Assembly (NCBI GenBank): GCA_004764695.1
Contig: SMSO01000034.1
Location: 3,720,001 to 3,784,000, forward strand
From: Schizochytrium sp. TIO01
Taxonomy: Eukaryota; Protista; Bigyra: Labyrinthulomycetes
DNA length: 64,000 nucleotides
Direction of reading: 5' to 3'
Of this stretch, positions 35,542 to 63,584 are shown piece after piece (the first letter of the stretch is position 1; the number at the start of each line of letters is the position of its first letter). Both the position numbers and the translations under genes were made by a program. The notes below the pieces were generated by a model. That model ran no database searches and had not been told where the DNA came from. It saw nothing but the letters and a program-made list of their open reading frames with translations.

Positions 35542-37833
35542 CTAAGGTTCAGAATGGGAATCTGATGCGAAACTTTCGGAAGCTGAGAATGATTCCAGTT
35601 GTTGCATCCTAGCCTTGAGAGATGTTTCGATTGCTCGAGCATTCAGCCGGAAAAATTCAAGTGTGTCAGATTCTGTTGTACGCGTTTCTAATGCAGATGC
35701 TACACTTTGACATTCGCGCAGAATTCCAATCAAATCGCAGTGCCGAAACAGGTTTCGGACAAAGTCCACCCCAGACTCTGTCCTTGTTGACCTCTGTAAG
35801 AGAACAGAGACGATTGATGCAGCTTCACATGCACAATCAGCGAAAGCATGATCAGTCTCGTATGTCTCAAGTTTTTGTAAGGTAATTAAAACAGCATCAC
35901 AAGCATCGACGAAATTTACAGCATGCGTCAATCTATGAAGAAGCTTTGCCTGATAAGTACCTTTTTGTGAGACTGCAAGGAGGAAACGCACCGATTCACG
36001 CACACAAGGTCGCCAGGCTGCATGCCCAGTAAAATAAAGTACACGAAGTGGAGCTTCGAGAGCTACAGGATATTGCAGCAGTAGTTCACAAGTCTCTGGA
36101 AATGTTGCCGCATGGCTGAGTATACGCAAAGGTACCAGAAGAGCCGAAGGCTCAAGAGGCTTTTTCAGCATATGCATACTGAGCACAACCACAGATGTAA
36201 GGACCTCAGGCTCTCCATCTGCAGGGCGATCGTAATCTTCCAAGGGGGGCAGCGAGATTGCTTTAAGAAACCTTGTCGCAAAGCGATGCAGTATCCCGGC
36301 GCGGGTTTTGTCTGCCTCAACATCACGCTGACTTTCATTAACTTTGCTATTTTCTGCGGAGGAAACACGTTGGAGACAGAACATGGCTAAAGAAAGCATT
36401 CTTGTGCGGCGAGCTTGTGCTGACGAGAATTCCCGTTTAATTGTATTAGCTCCTGCGCCACCATGTCGAACATTTGCTTGGAGAGGTTTGTGATTTTTGT
36501 TTGAGGACGTCTCAGATTGCGTTTCTGCAATAAGTAAATGCAGTGCATGCGATAGCCCAGGAAGAAGCTTGTGAGCAAAGAGATCTTCGGCAGGTTCTGT
36601 GACTTTGAATGATGAAGCTGAGCTGTTGGACGTCATCGGGGCAGCGAGAAGAACCTCTGCAAGCCCATCGATGAGAAGCATAAGCATATGACGATCTTGG
36701 GCAAACTCTTGTGAAGATTTAGCACGAGCTTGTTCAGTCTCACTAGCCCGTCTAGCTTCAGCTGAGGCAGCTTCTTCTTCACGGCGAGATTGCGTCTTTT
36801 GGCGTCGCCAAGACTCGACGCGGAATTTTTTCTTAGCATTTTCAAGCTCTGCACGAAGACGGTCCAGCTCATTAGACTGCCGAGCCAAGTCAAGCTCAAG
36901 GTCTCCTGTTCTTGTCTCGAGACGGTGATTCTTCTCTGACAACATTTTGATCCGGTCTTCTGCATTGGAAAGTTGTTTTGCGCGCTGCCGTGCGAGCTTC
37001 TGAGCACTTTGAAGTTTGTGTGTAATTGTTTCTCGCTGGCTGTGAAGTTTATCTTTTGCTGATGCAAGTTCCTCTTGAACGGAGTCACGTAGTCGTTGTT
37101 GGACGAGTTCAGCATCCTGACGCATCATCCTCTCTTCTTCTTTAAGTCTTTGATCCATGGCAGCTTCGCGTTGTGCCAGAATCGCTCTGCGGTCATCAAG
37201 TTCTTGATGCGCCTGTTCAAGAAAGAGCTTCTCTTTTGCAATTTCATTCTCTCTTTCTGCCAGCATGCGGGCCTTGATCTGAAGGCCCTCACTAAGGCAA
37301 ACGAGTTCATCGTGAGCCTGACTTAAACTGTTGAAGGAAGTCCCATGAGTAGCATGAAATGTAGTATTCACATCATCGTTGTGCTCGTGATCATCATCAT
37401 CATCAAGTTTACTCTGATCTGCATAAAAATCTTCAACCATGACTGAGCGCGCCCCATAGTGTCTACGGTGGATCTCAAAGCTTTCATGTTCATCCTCTGT
37501 CATTAATGTTGTTGTTTGAATTTTATCAGCGTCATGATGGTGATCGACAGATACGCCAAAGTTTGGATCCCGGCGATCATGGACCTGCTCAAAGGAAAAA
37601 TCTAATTGGTCTGTTGTTAGCTCTGATGCCGATAGAGTACTAGATGGGCCCAACGCAAGAGTGTCTGCTTCGGTATATTGGAACCCACTCGCAGTTGACG
37701 CTGCGAGGTAGTCTTCAAGGTCTGAAGATGCTGTGGACGGTGAATGCTTCGGCCTCGATGCGTTCACAGCGACCACTTTCTGTACTGCAACGTGTTCGCT
37801 GTGCAGAGGAACTGTCGGCTGAGAGTCGTCCAT
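35542..37833 (-). CDS. Coiled-coil protein with helical C-terminal domain, possibly CCDC138-like
   Basis: 763-aa ORF: acidic disordered N-terminus, ~200-aa coiled coil, then an ARM-like C-terminus ending SVLLQRSTR...FFRLNARAI, loosely like CCDC138 (SIILQKLSK...FLCINLNSTL). The gene is very likely real; the family call is tentative. Confidence 0.6.
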   Translation of the reverse strand: MDDSQPTVPLHSEHVAVQKVVAVNASRPKHSPSTASSDLEDYLAASTASGFQYTEADTLALGPSSTLSASELTTDQLDFSFEQVHDRRDPNFGVSVDHHHDADKIQTTTLMTEDEHESFEIHRRHYGARSVMVEDFYADQSKLDDDDDHEHNDDVNTTFHATHGTSFNSLSQAHDELVCLSEGLQIKARMLAERENEIAKEKLFLEQAHQELDDRRAILAQREAAMDQRLKEEERMMRQDAELVQQRLRDSVQEELASAKDKLHSQRETITHKLQSAQKLARQRAKQLSNAEDRIKMLSEKNHRLETRTGDLELDLARQSNELDRLRAELENAKKKFRVESWRRQKTQSRREEEAASAEARRASETEQARAKSSQEFAQDRHMLMLLIDGLAEVLLAAPMTSNSSASSFKVTEPAEDLFAHKLLPGLSHALHLLIAETQSETSSNKNHKPLQANVRHGGAGANTIKREFSSAQARRTRMLSLAMFCLQRVSSAENSKVNESQRDVEADKTRAGILHRFATRFLKAISLPPLEDYDRPADGEPEVLTSVVVLSMHMLKKPLEPSALLVPLRILSHAATFPETCELLLQYPVALEAPLRVLYFTGHAAWRPCVRESVRFLLAVSQKGTYQAKLLHRLTHAVNFVDACDAVLITLQKLETYETDHAFADCACEAASIVSVLLQRSTRTESGVDFVRNLFRHCDLIGILRECQSVASALETRTTESDTLEFFRLNARAIETSLKARMQQLESFSASESFASDSHSEP

Positions 37834-38249
37834 TATCTCTAAGCACTGGTGTGTACAGCCGGGGAATCAAGCAACCACCTCGAGAGCAGCTCGCCCAAGC
37901 GTTGCGACGCAATTCTGCTGTTTTGTCGCAGCCGTTTTCATACGGGGTTAGCTTTTGCGCAACGCATTTCGTTTTTTTCCTTCTAAGCCTAGTACCGTTC
38001 CCTGAAGTACTAGTACCACCACCTCAGCTTTATTCTAGCCATTCTAGGTCTCAACACTTGCGATTCTGATGATCTTGAGGCAGAAGATGAAGACTGCGAC
38101 GAAGAAGATGACGAGTGAAGCCAGTTTTTTTCTTTCTAGTTCATTCTTTTATAACCTTCAACACGTTTTCAAGTCTTTTTTAACTTCATTCACAAACAAG
38201 AAAGCCAAAACAGAATCCCCTTTTGTTTCTTTTCTTATAATAGTCCTAA

Positions 38250-39198
38250 ATGCAGGCTACCAAGGTACTTGTCGCATGTGCGGACTGGCTTACGCTACCA
38301 AGCAGGACCGCACAGATTTTCGTAGTACCTTGAAGTTCATGGTGAAAAGGTGAAAATGGGAACGACTGGAATTTTGTTAACAAGTCGGAGGTTTGCAAAA
38401 CCTTTATCGGCGAAAGTTGCGGCAGTGTCGAGATTGAAAACTCCATAGTAGTACAAGTGTTCGGGTCCCCCACCGGAGAAACTTTAGCAACAATTTCCCC
38501 GGGAGGCAACTTGAACGCGACAAAGTTTCCTATGCATACTGAGAAGTTGCTCGATAAGGACTCCGTTGAGTTCCTTCTCGCCATCAATGAGTGAATGAAT
38601 GATATTGTGGTGAAGGTTTCTACTGGTCAGTACGTGCAATCCGGAGAGCAGGAGCAACAGAACCGAGGTACCAGACCTGGCAGGAAGAACTAGAGTACCA
38701 GGAGCGCATGGAGGAGCTCAAACTAAAGAAAGCTTGCCGAGATGCCGAAGAAGTCCGCCCGGTTGAGGCAGACCCAGGCAGAGAATTCCTTCGAAATGAT
38801 GGCCGCTTACGGAGGCGACGAGTCTGACCGTGACAAGATCCACTGCATGGATTACCAGTGCAATATCGTCGTTTTCTCCATTGGTGATTCCTTGCTTGCT
38901 TCAGGATATCAGAGAAGGTCGCTCACAAATGCAGAGTGGCCGCGCAAAGCAAACCATTATGGATGCACAGAGAGATTACCATCTCTCTGAAGTTGCTTTG
39001 CGATTGCTGGGCCGCCCTGCACGCGACAAGGAACCTCCCAAGTTTGGAATGAAACTCTATTTTGCCAAGTACGGCACCACGCCTCCCAAGCGCAGCCAGT
39101 TCGTGGATGGCGCGCCTTGCCAAGTCAATTCTTATATTGCCAAGGACCTTGACCTTCTTGAGCAAGGCATTCATGCATTCATTCATTCATCAGTGTAT
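38250..39198 (+). pseudogene. Decayed KilA-N-domain gene of large-DNA-virus type
   Basis: Frames joined by hand give MQATKVLVACADWL/YATKQDRTDFRSTLK/GENGNDWNFVNKSE...TISPGGNLNATKF..TEKLL..SVEFLLAINE*..DIVVKVSTGQY/WQEELEYQERMEELKLKK/...DRDKIHCMDY.NI/...LSEVALRLLG...KFGMKLYFAKYGTTPPKRSQFVDGAPCQVNSY..KDLDLLEQGI. G-x-LNATK...EFL...IVVK matches KilA-N. There is an internal TGA (38592) and several frameshifts. Confidence 0.65.
39096..39198 (+). repeat. Direct repeat copy 1 (87-bp unit + 16-bp CATT microsatellite insertion)
   Basis: CCAGTTCGTGGAYGGCGCGCC...AAGGACCTTGACCTTCTTGARCAAGGCATTCAT...CAGTGTAT recurs at 40996-41082 with 6 mismatches, all transitions. Confidence 0.95.
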
Positions 39199-39493
39199 CC
39201 AATAAAGCTCTGCGAGTAAAGAAATCGATGAAAGTTTCTAGATTGTTAACACTCATATAAAACGAAAATGTAGTACCTCTAGATCTTCCTGCACTCAAAA
39301 TTGAATTGGAGGAGAGTGATGAGTCAGTCATCCATGCGTCATCAAAACCCTCTTTCCACCTTTGGTTTTTCATAGGTACCCTTTTATTTTGGTTTTCACC
39401 ACTCAAAAGAAGACGGTCACCGCTGACTAAGGAAGTTTCGGATTCTTTTATAGAGACAAAAGTGAGAGTGTGAAAGAAGAGGAGGGAGAGAAA

Positions 39494-40923
39494 ATGAGAA
39501 AGGACAAAAGCCGCCAAAGCCGCAACAGTGCGACGACAAACGGGGGCGCGACAGGAGCCAAAGCGCCAGGCAGTCGCGGGAGTGCGTCGTTCCGGAAGGT
39601 CGGTATTGGGCGTTTAGATCCCGTCCCTGAGAATAACGCGATGGAGATTCAAGCAGACCTGGACGATGCGGAGAGCAGGCGCCGCACAGTTCTACAAGTA
39701 TTTGATGATACGTTCGATCAGCTCCAAAGAGAAAAGGAGAAGATCAAGCAACTTGAAGAGGCGGCTGATGAGGGCAACGAACAGGAGATCTTTGACAAGC
39801 TATTTGGTTTGAAGAAAAAAAACTGAAGAACGTTGAAAATTACTACGATAAACTAATTGAGCACCAAGCGGCTCTCAGACGTGCAGTAGAACTTCACATC
39901 GGATTAACGAAGGCGGCCACTCAGGAGGTCCAAGACCATAGGGTGTCACTCAAACTGATCACACACGGTGATAAGCGGTATTTTGAGGTCAATGGTTAGA
40001 TCGAAAGATCGAAGTATAGTACTGGCGTTCGTCAGAGCGTCTACTATGCAGCAGCTGACACGGGTGGAACGTACCTCACCTCGGTCGATGAAGAACCTCA
40101 CGATGCTCATCGAAATGCTATATACTATGATGGAAACAACCTCAACTTTAAGCTTTTCTTTTGTGACGAAAAGGCGGCCAGACAATTTGCAGTCTTGATT
40201 TCCAATGGCCGGAGTCAGCAAGTGAACGCGGAGGTGTCTAATTTGGAGGAAACGGTATTCCCTCAAGACCTCCGTAACATTCTTACGACGATTATGATAC
40301 TACGCATGAACCAGACTCGCCTGGTATCTCCCACGCATCTTCAATCTCTAGCAAGACTTTGGCCGACTTGTCGAGTAACCTGGCCAGATTTCAATGCATT
40401 GAACGTTCTGATTTAGTGGCGCGTGGCAGAATACAAGTCTGTCACCTTGTGGATAAGAACGAAGTTAAAATCATTGAAGGTTTCTCTGATGATGACAATA
40501 ATAAGTTATGTTTTACCCCGACTCTTCACGCTAACCTCGATGGGAATTGGAAGAGGGACGGATATACCCCCCCCCCCCCCCCCTGACATACTGATCGAGC
40601 CCGTTTTAGGGACGCGAGAGGGCCTCGTTGTTACCGCTCCGGGGGTTATTGAAAACCCTGGATTCACCGATGACCAACTAGAGGAGCGTGCTTTGGTCTG
40701 GCTCAAAGTGAGCTTTCCTTTCAAAGAAGACTTCATTCTTTTTGGGAATCTACTCAAATTTGGTAGCATCGTTGATCCCGAGGAGGACCTACAGTCGTGG
40801 TGTTGGGTTATCTACACTTTTGTCCACGTTCTTGACAAAGATCAGTTTATGAAGAATGTTGATTGGAAAGCAGAACGCACGAGGGAGACATGGGAGGAAA
40901 GGGGATTTGATCAAATAAATTAA
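39494..40923 (+). pseudogene. Crinkler (CRN/CR)-type effector with HNH-like nuclease domain, disrupted
   Basis: The joined ORF has a coiled-coil header, then YFEVNG*IE...GVRQSVY..A...AIYYDGNNLNFKLFF.DEKAA.QF / DYD...DSP...SSISS...FQCIE...VCHLV...DDDNNKLCFTPTLHANLDG / ...LKFGS...TFVHVLDKDQF..NVDWKAE.T..W. This tracks the oomycete CRN C-terminal domain as recalled (GVRCRxY, AIWY, DYDP, YQRIE, ESCHL, NNRLALSRxxHxxxDG, LKEGS, TFVHVxD.xxF...WK). Lesions: A8 frameshift (39815-22), TAG (39997), frameshift near 40290, C17 run (40567-83). Confidence 0.78.
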
Positions 40924-40995
40924 CCGTCTGAACTTTAAAAAATGAAAATAAATTATCATTAAGGCAGAATGTCTCCGGACCGTTTATATTCTCAA

Positions 40996-41082
40996 CCAGT
41001 TCGTGGACGGCGCGCCTCGCCAAGTCAATTCTTATACTACTAAGGACCTTGACCTTCTTGAACAAGGCATTCATCAGTGTAT
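40996..41082 (+). repeat. Direct repeat copy 2; encodes QFVDGAPRQVNSYTTKDLDLLEQGIHQC, followed by I-stop
   Basis: Starts exactly 1900 bp after copy 1 and retains the likely original stop codon of the KilA-N gene. Confidence 0.95.
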
Positions 41083-42231
41083 ATAATTAACAAAACAAAA
41101 TCATATTTTTTCTCTGTAGAGTTATTTTTTTATTATCAATTTCCCGTTTCCGCTATTGAAAACACTGTACTAAGGCCTTTAAAGAAATACAACTTCTAAA
41201 CTGCCCGATTTTTGTTTTCAATCGACCCAAAACTACACCTTATTCAATACAGAGCGACTCTATGGTAGATAGTGAGTTTTTGCCACCTTGTGTTAAGAGC
41301 AACTGAGCGCAAGTAGAGCGGAGTCTCGCAAATGACTTCATTGTTTACTTTGCAAGGCTCTAAGTGATTGCAAGTCGCAGCTGCCTGAAAAACGATTTCC
41401 TTTTCTTTAAGAAAAATGACCAGCGCACAAACGAATGTAAGCATGGAGACTCCAAGGGTCAGTACTCTGCATGGGGCACTGTTCGCAAGGAGAAGAGATC
41501 ACTTTTCATTTTCCTTCTTCGTTTTTGTGTTAATTATGTCTCCCTTGTTTTCCGGTTTCTGTTATTACATTAATTATATTAAAACGAAACTTTGTGTATT
41601 TATTTATTCTGAAATGGTTATTGTGAATCGATTGTTGGGTCGGGGTGAACAGCACCGATCTCGTATGCTTTGTGTAGTTGTCGAGCCTTCCTGAGTAGAA
41701 TTATTGCAGAGATTAAGAGCATGGGCAGAGACAGAGGCATATAATTGACGCTACTTTCTTTGAATTTACTGTTGTACTGCCTGTACTTGTCCATCCAAAG
41801 TTCTGAGACCCGCTCTATAGTATTAAAAGGTAAGAAAAGAAGAAACAGTGCTTTTTGTTGCAACATGGACTCAGCACATGGACTCGAAAGATATAAAGTG
41901 ATTTCGTAGAACTTGTCTGTGATAGTTGAAAAGGTGATGATCTCTATTGACACGATTGCAGAAAATTAATTCAAAGGTTTTCTGTTTGATACAAAAGGTG
42001 AGTTCACTTATGTTTCAACTATGTGTAACAAATAACATGACATCTTTGCAATTCATGTGCATATGACAAGCGCGCAGATTCAGATTACAAATTAAGATTA
42101 CGCAGTAGTTGCAAAAAAATGTTTTCTAAATGTGTTGTTAGATATACAGCAAAAGCCTAGGCGACATGGGAACGTGACGATGGCATGATAACGTGAGCCT
42201 AAGAAAGGAGGCAAGCAGTATTTCCAAGATT

Positions 42232-42588
42232 TTAAGGCACAGCGCGAGACAGGTTTGCGTCCTGGGTCTTCTCGCGCTCGATCTGCTCCTTGATCAAATC
42301 TGTTTGCGCATATGACCCAGCCACATAAGATTTCGGAATACCACCACGTTCACGCACAGCGTCCGGGATTTTGTACTCCTTGGTACCGTCCGGGTGCTCA
42401 ATAACCTCCCACTTTTGATTCGCTTTGCTAGTGGCCCAGTCCATAATAAAGTAGCCGCTAATGAGTGGGATGCTCACGTAGAAAGCAGTCATCGCTAGCT
42501 GGCCTTTGCGTCCAAGCGGGATGCGAGTCGAGTGAATTTTGGCCTTGAGTGCCTGGTGCTTTCGGTAAAGATCGCGAAGGAACTCCAT
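42232..42588 (-). CDS. Small (118 aa) single-TM protein of unknown function
   Basis: ATG in an ACACCATGG context. Basic N-terminus (KIHSTRIPL), one hydrophobic helix (LAMTAFYVSIPLISGYFIMDWA), coding-like codon usage, divergent from the GT41 gene. Confidence 0.75.
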   Translation of the reverse strand: MEFLRDLYRKHQALKAKIHSTRIPLGRKGQLAMTAFYVSIPLISGYFIMDWATSKANQKWEVIEHPDGTKEYKIPDAVRERGGIPKSYVAGSYAQTDLIKEQIEREKTQDANLSRAVP

Positions 42589-43435
42589 GGTGTCTAACTT
42601 ATTTGATCTCGTTAATCTCAAACTTGCAAGAATGCAGGGTAAGACCTTGTTTTAGAGAAGCGGCGGCTCTGATCTTGTCTCGCGAATAAAATATATGAAA
42701 GCAGTGGTGCTCAGTACACTCGCACAGGAGCAACAAAGCGAGCGCTCAACGCTCCCGACCGCACGTCTACCCAGCAAAGCTTACAGCCCTCTTGCGAGGC
42801 TACAAGACCCTTGCGACCCAATTCACAAGCGAGTCAAAGTCCTGCGAAGTTGCACTAGTAGAGTTTTGCAGGAGCTCTTGAATAATCAATCAGCAGCAGC
42901 AGTAGAGCCTTGTTTATCTCTTGATCCATCCATGGCTTTTTCAAAAGTAGTCTATTTTAATTAAAAGGCTTATTGAGGTGGGAATGCGGGGAATGGGGAA
43001 TGAGGGGAACCGACTGAACGTTGGGTCAATTGGGGCAAATGACACACGATTCTGTTTAAGTCGATCAAGTCCCATTATGAAAACGCAGAACCTGAATCGT
43101 AAGCCTGTTGGTGAGTTTTATTCGCCAACGGTTGAGACCAAAGGTGCTTTGACAACCTCGAAGCTTGCTTGCGCCAAGTTGACGAAGTTCAAGCGCTGGG
43201 CCAGTTTCGCTTTTGCGCGAGCTGCCTCAGTCACCATAAACTGGGATCGAAGATTGAACGACCGTTGAAAGCAAAGTCATCGCACGAAAGTCAACTGCAA
43301 AGGAAACGAAAGTCACGGCGCTCAAGTCTGGCCTACGGATAGACAAAAGTGGGGTTCAGGCATATTTGCTATCCAATTCAGGAGTTTGCAGTCAATCAAC
43401 TTATCAGGCGAAGTCAAATGTCACAAGTTTGCAAC

Positions 43436-46666: not shown

Positions 46667-48154
46667 AGGTTTAAAGTCGGCCGGCTTTATTTATTAATCG
46701 AGGACCAAACTAATTAAATTCAAATGAAATGAGCTTGAAAGGATAACCGCATCTGTTACATTTTCTAGTTTTAGTTTAGCACCCACCCTTTGCAAATCAA
46801 TTGCAGACTGAATTTAAATTGGGGCTCTGTGTGGCGTCATTGCTCTCAAAGTAACTATTGCAGATCAACTTCTGCAGCGAAGAGTTCTTCAAAGCAACGG
46901 ACCCTGGGGAATATCTACTTACTTTGAGAAAGCAAAGACTCAAACATGTTGTTACCTAAGCTGTGTACCACAGGTTTACTAGGAGCTATTAGTATCTGGA
47001 AAGCACAAAGTTTCTGGATACAATTAATTAGGTTTTCATCCTGTCAGCGGGAAAAAAAGAAAATTGACGAGTCTAGCGTTCGTGAGGAATGGAGTAGGTC
47101 TCTCTGAACGTGTTGTTCTTTGTGAAGAATCCTGTTCAATAATTAGGACCAAAGACAGAAGGTACTATATGCAGTCTCAGCTAGATTTAGTAAAAAATAA
47201 ATGACAAAGTCAGATTCTTGGTAAAAGTATTCAGTAATGATGGTAGTAGGCAGTGACCTACGTTCGCAGTAGCTAGTATGGAATCTTCTTTGTGCAAAGT
47301 TCCGTTCTAGGTCCCATAAACAGTGGGTAGAGTTAATGGTATTTAGGATGTTTTAAAATTGCCAGGGCCAGGGATCTTCAATTCTTTAAACATTACACGA
47401 AAATCCAACCTGAAGAGAATCATTGAATAGACCTTGGGGTCAACATCTCTAAAAGGAGCCGGACCAAGCCCTTTGAGACCATAGGTTTTCATCTGTCTCT
47501 CCTTCATGCATGTTAGAATATTGGTGAAGACACTAGGTCACTAGCATATGATAGTATGTAAAACACTATCAGGTACTGAGTCTTGCTAGATCTCGGGGTT
47601 GTCCCACCATCCCACCATTACGTTATTCCATGGTCATCTTTGGTCAATATAACTTAGTCAGGCGTATGGTTAAAATTTCAAGCGAAGCATTCGTGAGGTG
47701 ATTTGAAAAGAACAGAAGGTACGCATTTGGGACTATAATACTCTGTCTCCACTGCAGACAAAGAGATGATTTCGAAAATCTATGGAGTCTTTCGAGCTTC
47801 TGATATTTTAATGAAATAAAATAAAATAAAATAAAATACCATATGTATATATAAATATTATGATTGATTGAGAGAATCTCAGGATGTAAGACACTCTGAC
47901 ACCATGATTTGAATGATCCATTTTGAGCTGGTCAGTATTCTTGAAAGATCAAATTATTGTAAGAGCTGCTTTGGTCCATGAAGTTAATTGTGGCTGTTGT
48001 TGACTTTAAAACCTCATCTAGACGCTCAAAAGCAGCCAGCCGCATACTCATACGCTCTTATTTCGTAGCAAACGCGGCTACAATTTCGAGCCATCGCCAG
48101 ACTGAATATCTTGCTGGATTAAGTAAAAGAAAACTTGAAGAAAAGAAAAAAAGA

Positions 48155-48483
48155 ACGAATGAACGAACGAATGAATGAATGAATGAATGAATGAATGAAA
48201 AAAGATAAAATTAGATCAAATAAAAACACTCTACCTAAATTAAAAAAATATCACTCACTTCGTGAGGAAAAGCCGAAGAAATGATTGGGAAAGAGTGGAG
48301 AAATTGGGCTTTCAGATTTGTTAATCAACTGGTGAGTGCGTGAACCGAAGAACAGTAGCTCGATCAGGCCCTCTCCGTCCGCCGCAATGAATACATAAAT
48401 GAATGACTGAATAAATAAATGAATGAATAAATGAATGAATAAATGAATGAATGAATGAATGAATGAATGAATGAACGAATGAA
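48155..48483 (+). repeat. Two (GAAT)n tetranucleotide tracts (48155-48198, 48387-48483)
   Basis: Direct reading. Confidence 0.9.
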
Positions 48484-50085
48484 CCCTTTTACAGCGTCCA
48501 CTCTTCTCAACTTTGTAACCTCATGCTAAGCAAGGAAGCGTCCGCGATGTGGCTCGGAAAACTAAGTTTCGCTTATGTCTCCTTACCCCATCGCTACCGC
48601 TCTTTCGTTAGTTTCTTTTAAAGCGTCCAGCAAAACGAGGCAGAGAACTTGTTATTAAAATTTAAGGGCTCTGAGACTTCTTCTTTTCTTAAGCTCATCT
48701 TCCGGTTTTACGCGGCTTAACACGAGTGTTCCTTCTTCTGGTTAGATCGACTCCTCCATGTGCAGTTGCCACTTCGGACTAGCTAGGGAGGTACGTAGCA
48801 GGGAGGAGGCTTCTCTTCTGTCTCTTCTGGCCGCAAAAAGGTGCTGGAGGTGCCTCCCTTAATAATCATTCTTCAGAAAGCGGAAGAACCATTTCTTAAA
48901 TTTCATAGAAAGAAAGAAAGAAAGAAAGAAAGAGATACACTGTGGCACGGAAAAGAACATCCCGCAAGAAACAGATGGTCGCTTAGCGCACGTGCAGCAG
49001 CAGCAGCTGGCCTGTATGTCATCGTTAGATCATGAATAGTCAGGCTATCAACAACTTGGGCCTTGCTGAGTTGAAGTGGCAAGCAGTCGCGGCGATTGAC
49101 CCTCTTGAGGACGGAGCGCCGAAGCGGCCACCGGCTGCTCCTCTCGAGTTCGGGGTGCTTCCTTCGGCTCAGCTCCTCCCTCAAGTTTAAACTTCGTTTC
49201 TGTGCCGCAAGCACGGCACTTTTTGTTCCTGTTCTTGTTCTTGTTCTTTTTCATCGTAGTACTAACAGTTGCTGCTGTCTAAACAGCTTCGCTAACAGCT
49301 TCGCTAACAGCTTCGTCGTCGTCGTCATCAGAACAAAGGCTCCTGCGTTTCAAGGGTCTTCTACAACTTCAAGCTCGGCTACAGCTTCACGCTCGACGAC
49401 TTCACGGTGTGCACGCAGGCAAGGACGCAAGCGTAAGCAAGGACGCAGGCTAGCTTCCGCAGCCTTCCAGTGCTGCTGTTCCGTCGTCCTGATCACGAAC
49501 TAGCCGTGAATCGTGAATTGGGAACCCGGGTCCTTCGGTTGTGGGCGCAAACTAACAAGGGACCCTGCCTACCTACCTGATCAAGAGTCATGGGTCCATG
49601 CATTTCAAGATCAAGGTTCTCGCAGTCGAGCTCCTCCCCGCTGATCCTGGCAAGTCTGCCTGTAGCTTGGGTCGGCAGAAGCTGCTCGCAGGAGTTTCAC
49701 GATCGAGTTCCACAGGCTCGACTTCGAGGTTTTTCAGAGGTTGGCGAAGGCAATTAGAGCAGCTCAAGCTTTGTCGGAGCAGCTTCAACTTCCGAGGGTC
49801 CTGGAAACTGGAACCATTCATTTCAGAGGAAGAAACTATAAAGTTAAAAACGCGCACCTTTTTCATGGAGACCAGCAATCAATTGGCCAGCCCCTTTGGG
49901 TCCCCATGCGGTGCGTGAACGAAGCGTGAACGAAGCGAGGACATGCCAAAATAAGGCTTGCCAATCGAAGTCTGTCCATGGCACCCAATGCTTGCTGATG
50001 CTTACTGACCGTTCCATTTCAACCAACCACTAGTTCTTACCTAGCTAGCTAGAGTGTCGCCAATCGTTGATCGAACATGGAGAGG

Positions 50086-50617
50086 GAACGCGAGAACGCG
50101 AGAACGCGAGAACGCGAGAACGAGAGAACGGCAGCGCTACTTACGCCTCACGCCTGTATGCATGTATCTATGACCGTAGGAAGGTTCCTCCTTACTCATA
50201 GTCGAGGCCAGAGAAAGAGAAAGAGAAGAGAAAGAGAGAAGCCCTTCCTTCGTTTACTTTCTTCCTTACCTACCTATCGCATGGTAGGTAGGTGCTACTG
50301 GTTCCAATCTTCCTTCCCGTAGCGTGCCGCCACGCGACGGCTGCAGGCGTGCTGGCGTGCTGGCTGGCTGTGTGGCTGGCATTCATTACAAGCATGCAAG
50401 CGCCGCGACGCTGGCCGTGAGGCTTCGAGGCTGTGTGGCTGGCTGCGAGACCTTTCCCGCTGAGCCTTCCTGCTGTTTCCATCTGTGGCCTCCATCCAAT
50501 CAATTCATGCGCAGGAGGGAGGAGCATCTACGCAGTGCCACAAGAACGAGAGAACGAGAGGACGGGAGAACGGGAGAACGAGAGAACGAGAGAACGAAAG
50601 GACGAGAGAACGGGAGA
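50086..50617 (+). repeat. Two clusters of the 8-bp minisatellite GAGAACG(C/A/G) (about 50086-50130 and 50542-50617)
   Basis: Direct reading. Confidence 0.85.
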
Positions 50618-51319
50618 AAGAAAGAAATAAGGAAAGTAAAAGGGAACTATAATAGTAAGGCAAGAGGAACTACTATGCCTATCTCTTTCTCTTTTACTAA
50701 AATAAATTTCAATTAATTAAAAAAATTAAATCAAAATAAATAATATGTATAAAAGATGAAGAAGGGGACAAAAGGTTTTGGGCGCTCTGCTGCTTCCCAC
50801 GGGAAGTCGATGGCCTACCCGAGTGAGCTCTCTCTCTCTCTCATTCTCAAACGAAAGAAGCGTTGTCTCGAGGTCCTTCAAGTCGGAGCGATCTCTCGTA
50901 GGCAAGTTCAAGAAGCCCGCAGCAGCATTACATTTATTTGCATTCGCAATCTCCGCATGGAGCCAACCCAAAGTAAGGAGATCTCAGGCAGCGCGTCTCT
51001 CGAAAGGACGGTGTCGATGAGACGATATGCCTCAATAATCGACACATGGCGCAACAAACAAACACAATGAAGAAAGAATACATACGTACTCACACAAATG
51101 AGTCAATCTACTAAGCTGGTTCAACAGCAGGGGCGTCGCGTCTTCTGAGACACACAGAAAGAGACAGATCCAACCAAATCCATCGCTCGCTCTCGAGGCG
51201 TGCGGCGCCGCTTCTTCGCTGCAGTCCTCTTCTCTCTCTCTGTCTCTCTGTCTGTAAGTTGGTCGCTCAGTCTATTCGCTCGCTCAGGTTCTCTCGCCGG
51301 CGGAGATGAATAGCGATAG

Positions 51320-51430
51320 ATGGATAGACAGAGAGATATAGCGAAGAGAGATAGAGATGGAGAGATAGAGATATTGAGTGATCGAGAGAGAGAGATAAAG
51401 AGAGAGAGAGATAGAGAGAGGGAGAGATCA
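51320..51430 (+). repeat. GA/GAGATA purine-rich microsatellite
   Basis: Direct reading. Confidence 0.85.
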
Positions 51431-51754
51431 TCGACGGCCTGCAGCCCTGAAAAGGAGGCATGGGAGGGGCCGAAGGAAGGAGACCAGGACCTCGCCGCTT
51501 AGGGCCCTTCAAGTGAGACTCGAGACTCGAGACTCGAGGCGCCTTAATTTTGAAACGAAACCAAAGTGGAAGAAGTTCGAGGTGGCCAAACTAACCCCAA
51601 CTGAGCACAGACCGCTTCTCTCTGCTAGCGAGTACCGCTACCAGCGCTGCTTTTGCTAGCAGTGATGGCTAGCTAGCTAGGTAGGGTAGCACTGTCGTCA
51701 TTCATTTCATGGCAGTGGCTGATTATGATACCTGTACATCCATCCATCTATATA

Positions 51755-51840
51755 TCGATCGATCGATCGATTGACTGACTGACTCACTCACTCACTCACT
51801 CGCTTACCAACTCACTCGCTTACCAACTCACTCACCTACC
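51755..51840 (+). repeat. Compound (GATC)n(GACT)n(CACT)n microsatellite
   Basis: Direct reading. Confidence 0.85.
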
Positions 51841-54800
51841 ACTGGCACGCCTGAAGGAAGAAGCAGGCAGGAGCTCTTCCTGCTAAGCGCTACGAGGCAG
51901 AGCAGCACACGGCAGGCAGCGCAGGCCTCTCAGGTGCGACGACTCACAGGCCGCCCGCCGCCTCAAGGAATCGGTCGCTCAGGCAAGCAGAGGGGGAGTG
52001 GAGGTGAGACGGTCGGCAGCCAGCCAAACCAGCGATGGATCGGTCGGGGGGCCAGTTCAACTCCATCAGCAGCATTGGCGGCAGCAGCATTGGCGGCAGC
52101 AGCAGTCGTAGCAGAGGAACCATCGATTTTTCGACTTGATTGCGGCTCCTGAGAAGAGCAGCCACATACATAGATAGATGCGTAGATACATACTATTTAC
52201 TTACTACTGGTTTCTTTCCTTTATGCCTACATTCGCTCCTACTTACGTACCGTAGGAAATAGGTAGTACTATGGAGTGTTCGAGCTGAGGAGGGGGCTCC
52301 GCAGAGAGTGAGGGAGAGGGAGGGAGAGGGGGACCTCACAAAGCAGCAAGCTGTGGATGAGAGAGGGGGACCCGCCGTGAGAGTGGGAAAAGGCCAGCTC
52401 TGAAGACACCCGCGGTCGGAAACACTAGCTCTGTCTCCACTGGACAGGGTTTTCTTGTTGGGGGTTCCTCAGACTCAAAAGCTTCTTCAGCGAAGGTGGT
52501 CGAGATACTCGGGACCTACACTGTCTCTCTTGCTTCAGGAACTCACTGTGGGAAAGTGAGAAACCCGTAGCCCTCACACTGAGCTTTTGAATTTTTATTT
52601 CGAAATAAATCGACTTCCTTCCGACAAACCAAACTTTGGACAAAGAAATAAAACTTTCAAAGAAAATAAAATATTGAAGAAAGATTCATTTGACTTTTAT
52701 TCTCTAGCTAGCTAGAGCTAGCAGGAAGGATAATTGCTGCCTCAAATAGGTACCATGCTCCTGCAGAGGAATTCGCTAAGAAAACTTCTCGTGCTTTCTT
52801 TTCTTTTTTTCTATATGCAGACGGAGGTAGTAGTAGTAGGTACGTAGGTCCTCCTCAGCTAGCCTTATCAAACCAGAGATCTATAAGAGGAGTTACGCAG
52901 TGCTGCACCGATGATTGAGCACAGAAAGTGAAGAAGCTCTGCAGATTTTTATTTTATTAAAAAAAAAGTACGTGATTGGGAGGATAAGGCGCCTCAATCG
53001 ATGAGTCAATCTGTCAATTGACATCTGAACGGCTGCGAATGCGAATGCGAATGTGTGTGTGTGAAAGAGAGAGAGAGAGAAGCACTCACACACAGAGAGA
53101 GAGGACTCCATTGCAATATTTGGCATGTAAAAACATGAAAACGAATTGAGCACAAGCCTTGAGTTTAATTTAATTTGTTCACATAATGCTGAGTGTCTCT
53201 CTCACAAGTCAGAATTAATGGGTTAGACTCTTTTAGCAGCCTGAGTAAGAACTCAAGCCAGAACAACCATTTACTCAGCCCTGGCCGAGTGAAGGAGAAT
53301 ACAAGCCTGTTACTTGAATGAAAGGAGGCCCTTACTTGCTTACCTATCCACCTACGATTGCCTGAGTGAGCGGTTGAACAAATGAATGAATGAATGAATG
53401 AATGAGTGAGTGAGTGAATGTACGCGAATGAATGGATATGAGTGGATAGGAACGCGAGTCGTGCTGCTCTCAACAAGAACGGCCATCTCCTGCCTTCCCT
53501 TTAGCCGGAGTCAGCTTTGCACTGCGAAAATTGGATTTCAATCTTTGTGCCGTACTCCGCCTTCTTTACTGTTCTGAAAAACGTGGCTTCTTCTCTTTCC
53601 TCTTCGCCAAGCGCAGGCAATCCAAGGAGTGAGTGCATAGTGCATGTGGATTCAACTTTGGTTTGCGTGAAAAGATCTTCTCAAGAAGATCGATCTTCTT
53701 CTCTCTCAGATGAACGAAAGATCAATCAGGTGTCGTCTTGCAAGCAGAAATCCACATCTCCCGCGACTCGACTCAGAGGATGTCTTGAAGATCACTCCTT
53801 CCTCAGGCCTGCGCAATCCCGCCCAACTGAGAACCTCCTCCAAGCCAAGCAAGCTTATGCTTGAAAGCCTGAACTTGAGTTGGGCTTGACAGCAATCAAA
53901 CTCAGCTCAAGCCGGGACTTGGAATTATTTGATGGACGCTGTGGCGTGAAGGCCGCCCGGGAGCGCCTCCGAGTCAGCAGACGGATGGGAGGCGAAGGCG
54001 TTAGCTACAGATGGGTGGATAGACAGGCAGATATAGAGAGATAGAGATAGAGAGAAAATGGATGGGGAAATAGATAGATCATCAATCAACCAATTATCAA
54101 TCAATCAATCAATCAATCGATCAATCCATTCTGAGTGACAGCCCAATAGCTAGGAAGCTACTAGATGGTCAACTAGCCAAAGAACTACCTGACTGGAGCT
54201 CTTTGGCGGCGTTATCGCTGCGACGCTCCAAGATTCGAGCGTGCATTTGTATGTTTGGTCCTATCTCAGACTTGGATTGAGAGTTATGAGTAAGTGAGGA
54301 AGTAAGTACCTTCCTACTTGACTTACTTACCTACCTACCTGCGTATTTGCCTATTTCCCGACTAGCGCAATACCCATCTTAGAAAGAATGAAAAGGGATT
54401 TCAACCTCGAATAAGCACTCCGAAGTGTCGCGAGATGGTGTTCTTCTTCTCGCATCAGCAAGCAGGCTTTCAATGAAAGCACTCGCTTAAGATCTTCCGT
54501 TGCCTGGAGCTTGAATAAAAGCCACAGCCTGCCTAGATACATCAACCAGTTGATTTTAATAAATAAATAAACAAATATAAATAGATAAATAGATAAATTA
54601 ATTGATTAATTGATTAACCGGTTTACCAATTGAATGCATTTGTTGGTTGGGTGGTTCACTCCAAGCTATTCATCCTTCTCTGGCGGTGCTCACTCCGTTA
54701 TTTCACTCAGTAGTTCACACTCTCTACCTCGCACTAACTCCTCTGCGGCAGACAGGCTACGGCAGTCACCTCCCTCGCTAGCCAACCGCATTGTCCGCGT

Positions 54801-57800
54801 AACTTTTTTCGGGTTCGTGGCGCTTGTTCAGTCTCTCAGGGCGGCTCAAGGCCAACGAGAATCTCCTGTAACGGGTCCACAGCCAGCGAATGCAAAGCAC
54901 ATTTAGGGCGTAGGCACAGCCTAAAACTCGCAGAACCGTTGCTGGTGTCCCTCGCCTACTCGAAGTTACTTATCAATTATCATTAAAGTATCACTCACTC
55001 TTCTATCATAATTTAATTATTTGAATTAGTTTGTTCATTTATACGGATAATGAAAATAAATAAAAATAGAAAGGTGTCATGAAAAAGGAAAAAGTGTCAC
55101 GAATTGAGGGGAAGGAAAGGTGAAAGACGCGATCGCTTGGTTCGCTGGAAAGGCTGATTCTACAAACCCAAGAAGAAGCCACGAATTCTGCGCTCGTTTG
55201 TTGCAAACGAGCAGTTGCGTCCATCCAGACTATGTCTCTATGTCTCTGTTTTGCTGGCTACGATGGTGAGTAACTAACTTCTGGCGGCGGCAGCAGCAGG
55301 TTCTTCAATCAACTGCCTGCCTGCCTGGCTGACTGACTGCTTGCTTGCTTGCTTGCTTGCTTGCCTGGGTGTTTTCGCAGTGCTTGCTGTGCAGCCGCAG
55401 CGCCTCCTCGACCAGCTTGAGCTCCGGGTGCTCCGCGCACTAATTAAATCTATCTTTTACAATCTGATCCATCCTCGAGGCGAAATTGCGGTTCTTCTTC
55501 GCGTTGGCGCAAAAAAAGATCGCGATCGCGGCGAAAGTCACTTTCTCTTTCCTGCTTTGGGCAGCAGATAGGTCTCATCTACCTACTTACTACCTGTCCA
55601 CAGTGCTTGGTTTTTGAGAATGTTGCGCTGCAAAGGCGGTCATTTCATGGCCCGTGGCTGGCAGGCGCCATCGCAATTTCGCAAACGAGCAGCAGCTTGC
55701 GTTTTCTATCAATCCGGAATTTGTACGCGTCTGGCTGGAACCTAGATTCTCGCAAGCAGGCAGTCACAGCACGGGGAGATAAGGATACCTAGCTAGAGGC
55801 ACCAAGCAGGCGGCAAAGCTGCTTTAAGTTTTCATTCCAATTCTAGCTCTAGAGAGAGATAAAAGCGAAAGCTAAACAAAACAAGGAAATGAGTAAGATA
55901 GTTTTTTTTATTTTTTTTTTTTAAATTTAAATCAAGGAACACCAAATTTTATAATAAAATGTTTTAAAGGTGTACTTTCTTAATACTGCGTAAAATAATT
56001 TTGTTTAGCTAGCTAGAATGGCAGACACTACTGCTCAGAGTAGTACAGCAGCAGCCTTCTCGTTGGGCCTCCTTCCTTGGAAACCAAGCCACTCAATCTC
56101 CTTCTTCCGTCTGTGATGATTTCCAACCTCTAGCTAGCTAGACAGCCTGAGAAGCAAATGACAGTACAATCGGCGAAGAGCACGAAGAAGAGAGAATAGT
56201 TTAGTTTCTTCTTCCTGAAAGCAGAGGAGGAAGGTCGGGAGGAGGAAGGAAGAAGAGGCACCCCTTTCTACCAGGCAACAGACAGAAGAACAGAGGCAAA
56301 GGCAGAGAGAGAGAGACAAGCGTGCGTGCGTGCGTGAGTGCGTGCGTGCACCCGTTGGAGAAGCCGCCGCCGAACTCGCCTTTCAACTAGTATTTACCAA
56401 ATCTTTGTTATTGTCATTCAAAGTTATTCGATTTCAATGAAAGCTGCTATGAGATAATACCCCAAATCAATTAAAAAAAAACAAACCACGAAGAATACCA
56501 GAACAGAACATTTGTCTATTATTCTTTTCCTGCTCCAAGAATGAAATATCTATCCTTAGGCTCTTCGTTCTCTCGCGGTGTCTTGTTTGAGTGATCTCGA
56601 TACAATCCATCCTCTCTGTATAAAGACGTCGAGCGGCTTCCTCCACAGAGGTCACGCTGCTCAGGTCATGACTCGTGAGGAGCGGTGGCGGAAGACAGTT
56701 GATTTAATAAATAGGGCTCAGACAGAAGCCGCGAGAGCAGTTAATGACTGAGCGCGTGAGCCGAGTTCTTCTTCTTCTCCTTCTTCTTCTACTCTTTCTG
56801 GCACCAGGATCTTCTAGGTAGCTAGCTAGCTGCCTTTACCTTCTTTCGCTCTCTGTTCCCTTTCTTTCTTTCCCTCCTTCCATCAGAGCCTCCAACTTTC
56901 CATCGAAAGATTTTCTTACGCAGAGACAATATATGACAAATCCTTCCTCCTTCCTCCTCTCTGCGCTGTTCTGGTTAGGTCAAGTCGAGCAAGCAGGCAA
57001 AAGCAGGCAAAAGCAGGCAAAGCAGGCAGGCAGGCGGGCAGTTCTTTGCTTTTCAGCTCCCTTCGACGGTGGATTTTGCCTCCGCGGCGCTTGGAGCTCT
57101 TATTCTTAGCTCCCTGAGCGCGACTTTCTTGCATTTTTCAAGCGAGTTCATCTTCGGGAGACGAGGGCCCTCAAGTTTCCGCTCCTTACTTCTTCATGAT
57201 TAGTTTTGCTGCAAGCGAGTTCAAGCAAGTTCAGAATTCCTTCCTCGCCGCTATGAACAGAAGAGGACGCATAGAGAGATAGACAGAAGGTACACAGACT
57301 CTCGTGCAAAGATGGATGAATCCAAGTCGCCGCCTCCTTCTTCTTCGTTTCCCTCTTTACCAGCTTCAGCTCGCGGGAGCCCAAAGCTTTCACGGCAGAC
57401 AGACAGGACAGACCTCTGACTGAGCTGGCTTTGCTCCTGTTTCCGAGAGAGAGAGAGAGAGACAGAGAGAGAGAAGCGCCCACGTCGGCCTCGTCGGGTT
57501 CAGTCAGGGCCTTCGCGCAGAAGAACTTGCTTGGCCAAGCTCGTCCATTCTCATCGCGCGTTGCGGAGATTGATGGAGAAAGGGGGAAAACGTGTCCTTC
57601 GGCGGTCAGTCAGAAAACAACGCAACGACTTCTTTCTTCGAAATTAAAAAAGTGGTTTGTTCATTTCGAAAACAAGGAACAGTCGACGGGACTTGAGCGC
57701 TGTGTCCAACTAAACCGCCGAGGAGTAGGAGGTGCCTACCTCAGCCTACCTGAAACTTGGCTGTTTGTCTACCAAATCGCTTCCCCTCCTAGCACACCAT

Positions 57801-58028
57801 GATTTTCCATTCGAACTAACGATCATCCGCACAAAAACCAGGAAGAGGTGGTATAGCGGTAAAAGTAATTCGTTGCGCGCAAATGTGGCAAACGACCGCT
57901 CGCCTGGAGCTAGCTAGCTAGTGCCCTCGCTACGTGAAACCGGAGGCGTTCGATCCGCCCGCCCAGCTTTTCGAAATTTCAAGTTACCTCCTCAGTTTCT
58001 TGTGCTCGATCATTGCGATGGGCACCAA

Positions 58029-58115
58029 CCTACCTACCTACCTACCTACCTACCTACCTGCCCAGAAGAAGAAGAAGAAGAAGGAGAAGGAGAAGGAGAA
58101 GGAGAAGGAGAAGGA
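58029..58115 (+). repeat. Compound (CCTA)n-(GAA)n-(GAAGGA)n microsatellite
   Basis: Direct reading. Confidence 0.9.
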
Positions 58116-58488
58116 GGGCGTCCTTCAAGCTGAAGCTGCGTTTTGCCGGCTTCGTGAAAGAGTTACACGTGCGTAGGTTCTTAATCTCTTTTTCACTCTC
58201 TCTCAATCGATTTCAATGATCTCTCTTTCAATGATCTCTCTTTCAAACGAAGGACAGAGGAGCGAAAGAGCAGAAGATCGAAAAGGCGAGAAAGCCGAGT
58301 CACCGTGATTCGTTCGAGGGCGGCTCGGGTGCTGGCTGGCTGGCTGGCGGCCTGCCTCCCCCTCGTAGCTCAGCGCAGAGAGGGCGGCTCGGCTCGATCG
58401 CGACGAACCTCGGCTGCGGAGCCGCGCCAGACATACCCGACGGTGGTGCCTTGACAGGAGCGGCCTCGGCAGAAAGAAGCAGCGGCAG

Positions 58489-58527
58489 CAAACAAACAAA
58501 CAAACAAACAAACAAACAAACAAACAA
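58489..58527 (+). repeat. (CAAA)n microsatellite
   Basis: Direct reading. Confidence 0.95.
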
Positions 58528-59077
58528 GCAGATGCGTACTACGTGAGAAAGGACGCGTCGTTTGCACCATTTGTCGTTGCTTTGACAGTCAATACAAAAC
58601 CAAAGAATTCTATTAATAGAATGATAGATAGGCGCGGTCTTTCATCTGTTCTCATGGCGTTTGGAGCGAAGACAGAGGGCAGCTTTTGGCCTCTTGCTTC
58701 GCCAAACAGCCCACAGCTGGGTCCTGGGGCTGCTAGTAGCTCCGGCAGGACCGTTTAGCATAAAGCCTAAGAAGCTAGTAGCAGGTAGAGTTCCGTGGCC
58801 GTTCCGATGCATCTAGTGGTACAAAGGAAGCTTGAAGGAATGTGGAGATTCTCCATCCTCGTTGCAGATTCTCCATCGCCCTCGTCTGCGGCGGCGGAGG
58901 TGCCTTCTCCTTGGCTACCAAGGCATACATAGTCAGTCAGAGGCAACGAAGGCCAACTTGCAGATCAGTGCGGAGGTCTGCGAGGCAGAATGGCTCGCTC
59001 GAAGGAGGAGAAGAGGCTGAAAAGAGCAGCAAAGATCAACCAAGCAACTCGTCTTAGGTCTCGTCTGAGTCAGGTGT

Positions 59078-59108
<31 letters not shown>

Positions 59109-61801: not shown

Positions 61802-61834
<33 letters not shown>
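61802..61834 (+). repeat. (CTGT)n microsatellite
   Basis: Direct reading. Confidence 0.9.
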
Positions 61835-61838
<4 letters not shown>

Positions 61839-62967: not shown

Positions 62968-63135
62968 TGATTGATTCACTTATTTCATTCACTCATTGAT
63001 TGATTGACTCATTGATTGATTGATTGATTGACTCATTAATTGATTGACTCATTAATTGATTGATTGATTGATCACTCATTGATTGATTCACTCATTAGTT
63101 GATTAATTGATTGATTGATTGATTGGTTGATTGAC
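62968..63135 (+). repeat. Degenerate (TTGA)n/(CTCA) compound microsatellite
   Basis: Direct reading. Confidence 0.9.

Positions 63136-63523: not shown

Positions 63524-63583
<60 letters not shown>
63524..63583 (+). repeat. (TCAA)15 perfect microsatellite
   Basis: Direct reading. Confidence 0.95.

Positions 63584-63584
<1 letters not shown>

What the first reader, a model, noticed from the sequence alone, without database searches (positions are those of the whole stretch)
39096..41086. Crinkler-type HNH nuclease cassette bracketed by an 87-bp direct repeat of a viral-type gene end: candidate mobile CR-HNH element
Seen: a ~1.8-kb segment (39199-40995) holding one disrupted ORF lies between two copies of the last ~87 bp of the KilA-N gene. 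The copies start 1900 bp apart and differ by 6 transitions; only the downstream copy keeps the in-frame stop (...GIHQCI*). Known: CR/Crinkler effector toxin domains include HNH nucleases and have been proposed to derive from selfish elements. Inference: the geometry fits insertion of the nuclease cassette into the KilA-N gene with an unusually long target duplication, or integration of a circle by recombination across the 87-bp homology. That would make the CR-HNH gene a mobile or homing unit riding in virus-derived DNA. Collapse of a tandem array is the alternative.
Basis: partly seen in the sequence, partly recalled or inferred. Interest (0 to 1): 0.8.

Follow-up and report, generated by a model that had tools for sequence, protein, structure and literature searches.

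The report
Dead nuclease gene in virus-derived repeat
A broken copy of a Crinkler-type gene, predicted to encode a DNA-cutting enzyme, sits between two copies of the end of a broken gene that the marine protist host shares with its giant viruses, and it was likely pasted in once and then copied along with its neighbours rather than jumping on its own.

Summary
The geometry is real. Two copies of a gene end lie 1900 bp apart (88 of 98 aligned bases identical, plus a 16-nt microsatellite insertion in the first). Between them is a 1786-bp segment with a nuclease-like gene broken in four places. Contigs of other strains tile most of the locus, so an assembly artefact is unlikely. The gene belongs with the HNH_2/CR-HNH relatives, has intact transcribed paralogs, and lacks the Crinkler ubiquitin-like header. 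The flanking gene is not shown to be KilA-N. It matches ORF 753/604 of the mirusvirus AurliV-1 and shares only its C-terminal domain with phage KilA-N/Bro-N proteins. The whole ~3.8-kb block (about 38.02-41.80 kb) is multi-copy, not only the cassette. Diverged paralogs keep the same cassette-to-repeat-to-tail junction, and cassette-less paralogs (gene end then tail) appear to exist. No cassette copy with another flank, no terminal repeats, no poly(A) and no transposase were seen. Best reading: one templated insertion with a ~100-bp duplication, later copied as cargo. A site-specific selfish cassette is not excluded (about 12%).

The parts
38020..41801 (+). Multi-copy composite block (edges approximate): virus-family pseudogene, repeat 1, cassette, repeat 2, tail
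   Evidence: Summed contig depth 1.0x in the left flank, 1.0-1.2x in the right flank and 1.7-7.5x by segment inside, in 4 of 4 runs. Unique-flank contigs end at 38057-38264 and begin at 41692-41740. One paralog's homology stops at 41801 in 2 of 2 runs.
38250..39205 (+). Broken gene of the AurliV-1 ORF 753/604 family, with several frame changes and stops. C-terminal domain shared with phage KilA-N/Bro-N/AntA proteins.
   Evidence: Motifs along its length match the published viral ORFs by eye. A profile of phage relatives hits 38953-39165 at E 4e-12.
39093..39206 (+). Repeat copy 1 (gene end with stop), holding a 16-nt microsatellite insertion at 39168-39183
39207..40992 (+). 1786-bp cassette between the repeats; no terminal inverted repeat, no poly(A)
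39641..40923 (+). CR-HNH-like pseudogene. Predicted layout from an intact paralog: coiled-coil N-terminus, small alpha/beta domain, HNH region, C-terminal domain. Broken at four places: near 39812-39820, 39997-39999, near 40282, and in the C-run near 40568-40584.
   Evidence: Pieces 58-95% identical to P0003/P0007; model of the intact paralog pLDDT 87.7
40284..40565 (+). HNH-like region; the family's conserved H, N and Q/E positions are kept
   Evidence: Alignments; fold rows dominated by HNH nucleases, each individually weak
40993..41090 (+). Repeat copy 2 (gene-end remnant, ...GIHQCI*)
   Evidence: profile hit E 1e-6
41091..41801 (+). Non-coding tail, shared with paralogs with and apparently without the cassette
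   Evidence: no ATG ORF of 100 aa or more
35542..37833 (-). Single-copy left flank gene (763 aa, no Pfam family at cut-off)
42232..42588 (-). Single-copy right flank gene (118 aa, weak UcrQ hit below cut-off)

Best explanation
The stretch is a decayed composite in which a Crinkler-type gene for a predicted HNH nuclease, with its likely promoter, was probably copied once into the spot just behind the stop codon of a virus-family gene, most likely by a repair or replication template switch that re-copied the last ~100 bp, and the whole ~3.8-kb block was then likely duplicated to a few other places with the nuclease gene as passenger. Shown: the repeat, the broken genes, their homologies, the multi-copy state of the whole block, and paralogs that keep the cassette-repeat-tail junction. 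Inferred: the single event, the template-switch mechanism, the order of events, and that the block moved by ordinary duplication or as a non-autonomous element whose mover is unknown. This copy is dead. Intact paralogs are transcribed and would encode nucleases that likely act inside the cell, since no Crinkler ubiquitin-like header was found.
For: (1) Depth relative to flanks, 4 of 4 runs: 5' flank of the upstream gene 2.3-4.3x, gene body 2.9-3.5x, cassette 3.7-4.7x, tail 1.7-2.7x. This is summed contig depth, not a copy number. (2) An 821-nt contig of run X3 at about 2.5x depth, with 74 differences, spans cassette end, repeat 2 and tail (40328-41160). In X1, X9 and X13 cassette contigs run to 41001 and continue as a decayed version of the same repeat. 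(3) Cassette-less types: a joint from repeat to tail at 41146 in 2 of 2 runs, only 20-27 letters on the short side (placed at repeat 1 for X9). A half-depth contig with a copy-1-like 4-nt insertion runs on into the tail (X3 and X9). (4) No terminal inverted or direct repeats at cassette or block ends; 3 tests, the best hit lies 134 nt inside the cassette. No poly(A). No transposase or reverse-transcriptase family in the 12 window proteins scanned. (5) Both repeat copies carry private changes, and their ~10% divergence is close to the ~9% between this cassette and its paralog.
Against: No paralog contig was seen to bridge the 5' junction: at 39207 and 39219 total depth equals single-copy depth in 3 runs and is 0 in the fourth. 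Filled paralogs are therefore not shown to begin with the upstream gene. The paralog's tail looks more diverged than its cassette 3' end (about 13 of 74 against 5 of 69 listed differences; Fisher p 0.08; the difference tables were cut), which would fit separate insertions into already diverged targets. The empty-type joints are short. Output tables were truncated: 24 of 160 and 12 of 26 loose ends shown. In X3 the 821-nt contig is the only cover at 40850-40960, so it may absorb this locus's own allele. Depth over the viral-family gene may be inflated by episomal virus DNA. The block's right end rests on one paralog, and no genome was available.
Confidence: 0.5

Rival explanations
1. Collapse of a tandem cluster: the original order was virus-family gene, CR-HNH gene, second virus-family gene, tail, and a deletion removed all but the last ~100 bp of the second gene. 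The repeat is then two paralogous gene ends, not a target duplication.
For: The family is multi-copy: the repeat bins reach 14-18x flank depth and loose ends show in-frame, diverged gene bodies upstream of repeat-like sequence. In AurliV-1, ORF 604 and ORF 753 lie in tandem with shared N-termini and different C-termini, and ORF 566 is the C-terminal part alone. No paralog bridges the 5' junction. CRN genes are known in head-to-tail arrays (PMC5289972 section 11).
Against: Copy-1-like ends followed directly by the tail exist, so gene-end-plus-tail looks like the native unit. A tandem origin then needs a duplication plus replacement of one tail and gene body by the cassette. The homology of repeat 1 stops within a few bases of the stop codon, where the cassette begins.
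Confidence: 0.3
2. Site-specific selfish cassette: the HNH protein nicks the end of ORF-753-family genes with a ~100-bp stagger, and the cassette is copied in repeatedly, always behind the stop codon.
For: Filled and apparently empty paralogs both occur. Intact transcript-derived paralogs are 95-98% identical to one another. The tail of the filled paralog may be more diverged than the cassette (not significant). A 126-bp stagger has precedent in the R9 retrotransposon (PMC6895275 passage). A predicted-structure match to two Feldmannia species virus proteins (E 1e-16 and 4e-15) puts the family in giant viruses.
Against: The cassette encodes no reverse transcriptase, transposase or recombinase. 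R9 needs reverse transcription and there is no poly(A). Homing by recombination leaves no duplication (established knowledge, recalled). No second target type was seen. None of four CR-HNH motifs occurs in the AurliV-1/2 gene tables (cells cut at 400 characters, exact matches only).
Confidence: 0.14
3. Assembly artefact: a cassette from another locus was spliced in through the repeat.
For: No listed contig spans the whole stretch, and no window-like contig was listed across the cassette-to-repeat-2 junction. No long reads were laid.
Against: Single-depth contigs of X13 tile 37500-39937, one bridging repeat 1 into the cassette (39145-39617). X3 contigs tile 41032-42600 with 0-1 differences each. 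Paralogs show the same 3' junction. The two repeat copies differ at 10 sites plus an insertion.
Confidence: 0.04

Closest known systems
[quoted passage not shown] 2016, seen only through PMC5289972 section 11 and a table row of PMC5714182)
   Same: 12 of 64 aligned relatives hit HNH_2 and 2 of 64 carry the Crinkler N-terminal domain. Intact paralogs give a weak HNH_2 hit at the right place (E about 0.1). CR proteins are known from free-living eukaryotes and with alpha-helical headers.
   Different: No ubiquitin-like Crinkler header; a predicted coiled coil instead. The host is likely a free-living thraustochytrid. This copy is a pseudogene.
AACRNL Crinkler-like genes carried by flanking hAT/mariner elements in fish (PMC12957317, abstract and section 8)
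   Same: Crinkler-like gene without a host-targeting header, multi-copy with pseudogene copies, spreading as a passenger of neighbouring DNA.
   Different: HNH-like rather than ADP-ribosyltransferase domain. No terminal inverted repeats found. The neighbour is a virus-family gene.
AurliV-1 ORF 753 / ORF 604 / ORF 566 family, with a homologue in SmDNAV (PMC12606086 supplementary file 3)
   Same: Motifs along the whole upstream gene match by eye. The table gives SmDNAV as top hit (1.6e-53) and a cyanobacterial KilA-N protein as a weak annotated hit. Host-virus gene exchange with multi-copy nuclear genes is described for thraustochytrids (10.64898/2026.07.28.741200 passages).
   Different: Here the gene is a broken copy between single-copy host genes and lacks the viral N-terminal extension. 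The viral neighbours seen (5 other rows) are not CR-HNH genes.
Phage/cyanobacterial antirepressor-like proteins (KilA-N, Bro-N or AntA N-terminus plus a shared C-terminal domain)
   Same: C-terminal domain: 33-37% identity over 67-84 aa, profile E 4e-12. These hits were first found with a motif from the window, so the E-values are optimistic.
   Different: The N-terminal domain varies among relatives (KilA-N; Bro-N and weak AntA), and the KilA-N part of the profile finds nothing in the window.
R9 retrotransposon with a 126-bp target duplication (PMC6895275 passage)
   Same: Very long direct duplication around an insert.
   Different: R9 encodes reverse transcriptase and an endonuclease; this cassette has no reverse transcriptase match and no poly(A).

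Membership tests
CR-HNH (HNH_2) nuclease domain | Sequence homology to HNH_2 with conserved H and N residues | tested here: met
   12 of 64 relatives hit PF13391 at E up to 0.01, best 4e-5. H269, N288 and H297 of P0003 are invariant or nearly so. The paralogs alone stay below the curated cut-off.
CR-HNH (HNH_2) nuclease domain | Beta-beta-alpha-metal fold | tested here: inconclusive
   Top 10 Foldseek rows are HNH nucleases but E is 0.6-2.4. The top 14 of 20 VIA rows are HNH proteins (family names recalled), best Z 3.4, rmsd 3.0, 54 aligned.
CR-HNH (HNH_2) nuclease domain | Nuclease activity | not testable with these tools
   Needs an assay.
Crinkler effector (canonical) | N-terminal ubiquitin-like header (PF20147, LxLFLAK) | tested here: not met
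   No PF20147 hit in 5 of 5 intact paralogs; the model has long helices at residues 2-108.
Crinkler effector (canonical) | Delivery into another organism's cells | not testable with these tools
   No data.
KilA-N protein | KilA-N domain (PF04383) | tested here: not met
   No hit in the three pieces scanned, covering 38367-39216. A profile that includes KilA-N hits only the C-terminal part of the window gene. The published viral homologue has no Pfam entry. Decay could hide a remote match.
Cut-and-paste DNA transposon | Terminal inverted repeats and short target duplication | tested here: not met
   block edges are known only roughly.
Cut-and-paste DNA transposon | Encoded transposase | tested here: not met
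   No such Pfam family in cassette pieces or paralogs.
Retrocopy / non-LTR insertion | 3' poly(A) or tandem tail; reverse transcriptase | tested here: not met
   Longest A run in the last 120 nt is 6; 434 nt of upstream DNA is included.
Helitron-captured segment | 5' TC, 3' hairpin plus CTRR, insertion in AT | tested here: inconclusive
   A 7-bp-stem hairpin lies at 37989-38013; no convincing end at 41.8 kb; termini not mapped to the base.
Homing endonuclease element | Empty and filled alleles of one locus; cutting of the empty site | tested here: inconclusive
   4 of 4 runs carry the block at this locus; only paralogous empty types were seen.
Endogenous giant-virus element | Viral hallmark genes and a viral gene neighbourhood | tested here: not met
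   Neighbours scanned are host-type: histone H2A, PLP decarboxylase, TPR/glycosyltransferase-like. Not all 35 ORFs of the window were scanned.

The most novel reading that the evidence does not exclude
A header-less Crinkler HNH nuclease gene in thraustochytrids is a selfish unit that inserts site-specifically behind the stop codon of a gene family shared by the host, its mirusvirus and its skiavirus, leaving a ~100-bp duplication. It would move without a transposase and could shuttle between host and giant viruses, a living example of the proposed transposon-to-toxin origin of Crinkler domains.
Probability: 0.12. Interest if true: 0.8.

Novelty: new member of a known kind. Interest (0 to 1): 0.36.

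Why it matters
As it most likely stands, this is a decayed passenger gene in a small dispersed repeat, which is ordinary. Two side results are useful. This protist has a small, transcribed, header-less CR-HNH family with predicted-structure relatives in a brown-algal giant virus. It also has many copies of a gene family shared with its persistent mirusvirus, and the two are physically joined here. That gives a testable case of host-virus gene traffic in a culturable organism. If the cassette proved to insert repeatedly at this target, it would be a transposase-free mobile nuclease unit and direct support for the selfish origin of Crinkler toxin domains.

Tried and rejected
No genome is held for the window, so paralogs were seen only as fragments of public contigs. 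Pfam, PHROGs and NCBIfam gave no family at cut-off for any window piece. Protein searches with two pieces of the upstream gene found nothing, nor did PDB sequences or annotated phages. Viral-contig scans with P0003, two upstream pieces and alignment A4 found no relative; a later motif scan gave only three phage contigs already held. Both metagenome scans were empty. The Atlas could not read the window piece or P0003. For a distant homologue it listed HNH_2 clusters at 0.86-0.89, a lead only; for the phage C-terminal domain it listed unnamed clusters. Whole-model fold searches were filled by the coiled coil or gave nothing significant. No Rfam match in 37500-42600. Earlier findings by place, sequence and words gave nothing on this element. 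Zhang et al. 2016 is not held, so whether it already lists thraustochytrid or phaeovirus CR-HNH proteins is unknown to me. Paper searches listed no description of this block; bioRxiv supplements are closed and may bear on it. Rejected: insertion inside the coding region (both copies have a stop); terminal repeats; one-directional mutation of the RIP type (transition counts are similar in all four directions).
Full report
Observation. The repeat is there: 39093-39174 and 40993-41074, 1900 bp apart. With gaps it covers 98 aligned bases, 88 identical, and copy 1 holds a 16-nt microsatellite insertion. The local score is 61 against at most 15 in 60 shuffles. Copy 2 ends ...GIHQCI*. Copy 1 has its own stop behind the insertion (IHQCIQ*), so the 1786-bp cassette (39207-40992) sits just behind a complete gene end.

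The cassette gene. One piece found an intact 425-aa protein from a marine-eukaryote transcriptome collection, 82% identical, in a cluster of 5 transcripts; three full-length members compared are 95-98% identical to one another. The window copy matches from 39641 to 40923 in five pieces of 58-95% identity, broken at four places. A full HMMER scan gave 91 relatives at E up to 0.001. I aligned 63 of them with P0003: 12 of 64 rows hit HNH_2 and 2 of 64 the Crinkler N-terminal domain. HNH_2 is the Pfam family filed as CR-HNH (PMC5714182, one table row). The paralogs themselves score only E about 0.1. The model of P0003 (pLDDT 87.7) has a long helical N-terminus and no ubiquitin-like header. It matches two Feldmannia species virus proteins (E 1e-16 and 4e-15, 22-23% identity). 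The HNH piece folded alone returns HNH nucleases in the top rows, each weak. So it works like a CR-HNH nuclease gene, is not a canonical Crinkler effector, and is dead at this locus.

The upstream gene. No library names it. A motif scan found phage proteins with the same C-terminal domain, joined to KilA-N, Bro-N or weakly AntA domains. A profile of these hits 38953-39165 (E 4e-12) and repeat 2 (E 1e-6), while its KilA-N part finds nothing. The closest match came from the gene table of the mirusvirus AurliV-1 (PMC12606086, supplementary file 3; rows seen). ORF 753 shares motifs along the whole window gene, such as DWEYVKKSEV against DWNFVNKSEV, TWQEELEY, HREITIS and VDGAP..VNSY (located in the window; comparison by eye). 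Its tandem neighbour ORF 604 shares the N-terminal part, and the table's top hit is an SmDNAV protein. The surroundings are host genes, so this is a small island and not an integrated virus. The host is inferred to be an Aurantiochytrium-like thraustochytrid, from this match and from unchecked earlier notes on the same genome.

Is the locus real, and what is repeated? Twenty of 24 listed runs hold part of the stretch, from 12 studies. I laid 4 runs from 4 studies and 2 of them again on 40850-41950. All are short-read contigs, with truncated tables and dropped rare paths. Single-depth contigs of X13 tile 37500-39937, including a bridge from repeat 1 into the cassette; X3 contigs tile 41032-42600. 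Three runs lack 59 bp at 38462-38520, so they are not the window's own allele. Depth is 1.0-1.2x in the flanks and raised across the whole of 38013-41774: about 3x over the upstream gene, 4x over the cassette and 2x over the tail. With only repeat 2 as target, the repeat draws 14-18x, and loose ends show in-frame paralog gene bodies upstream of it.

Filled and empty paralogs. An 821-nt contig at about 2.5x depth, 9% diverged, runs from the cassette through repeat 2 into the tail. In the other three runs cassette contigs continue into a decayed repeat at 41001. No listed loose end shows a cassette 3' end in another flank (24 of 160 and 12 of 26 shown). Two kinds of contig join a gene end to the tail with no cassette match: a single-depth one (joint to 41146, 20-27 letters on the short side, 2 of 2 runs) and a half-depth one with a copy-1-like insertion. 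One paralog's homology ends at 41801 in both runs. Against a simple picture: no paralog contig covers 39207-39219, and the filled paralog's tail may be more diverged than its cassette end (p 0.08).

Mechanism. Gene end plus tail looks like the native unit, which favours insertion with duplication over deletion. The cassette has no terminal repeats, no poly(A) and no enzyme for its own integration. Homing by recombination leaves no duplication (recalled), and the one long-duplication precedent I read, R9 with 126 bp, is a retrotransposon (PMC6895275 passages). The most economical account is one templated insertion by a replication or repair switch (mechanism class recalled), followed by copying of the composite block and decay of this copy (0.5). 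Tandem collapse stays plausible because the viral family is itself tandem and shuffled (0.3). Repeated site-specific insertion is not excluded (0.14). An artefact is unlikely (0.04).

Comparison and novelty. CR proteins in free-living eukaryotes, with helical headers and links to transposons, are known (PMC5289972, passages and section 11). A Crinkler-like passenger of hAT elements is described in fish (PMC12957317, abstract and section 8). Multi-copy genes shared by thraustochytrid nuclei, mirusviruses and skiaviruses are described (10.64898/2026.07.28.741200, passages). The A. limacinum genome preprint (10.1101/2023.06.15.545109, passages) and the main text of PMC12606086 do not use the words KilA, HNH or Crinkler. 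Searches listed no account of this block; Zhang et al. 2016 could not be read and bioRxiv supplements are closed. Verdict: real geometry, a new member of a known kind, interest 0.36; the selfish-cassette case has probability about 0.12 and would merit 0.8.

Noticed in passing
window 38462-38520: A 59-bp stretch present in the window and run X13 is missing in single-depth contigs of X1, X3 and X9, so the locus is polymorphic among strains.
   Followed up: no
window 37989-38013: A 7-bp-stem hairpin lies just left of where multi-copy depth begins; it may mark the block's end or belong to the flanking gene's promoter.
   Followed up: partly
P0003 model against the viral structure library: Two uncharacterised Feldmannia species virus proteins (B5LWM7, B5LWG2) match the CR-HNH-like protein over more than 300 columns, so this family occurs in a phaeovirus.
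   Followed up: no
L001-L033: An unnamed C-terminal domain is shared by phage and cyanobacterial proteins with KilA-N, Bro-N or AntA N-termini and by thraustochytrid virus genes; no Pfam family covered it.
   Followed up: partly
PMC12606086 supplementary file 3, ORF 753 row: The table lists a strong hit (2e-49) to a beetle protein annotated DDE Tnp4 domain, a hint that this gene family can sit with a transposase elsewhere.
   Followed up: no
window 41090-41401: A half-depth paralog contig joins repeat to tail across 310 bp in 3 of 4 runs, suggesting a copy present on one haplotype only.
   Followed up: partly
window 48100-64000: Dense microsatellite tracts and no ORF longer than 109 aa in the last 16 kb.
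   Followed up: no
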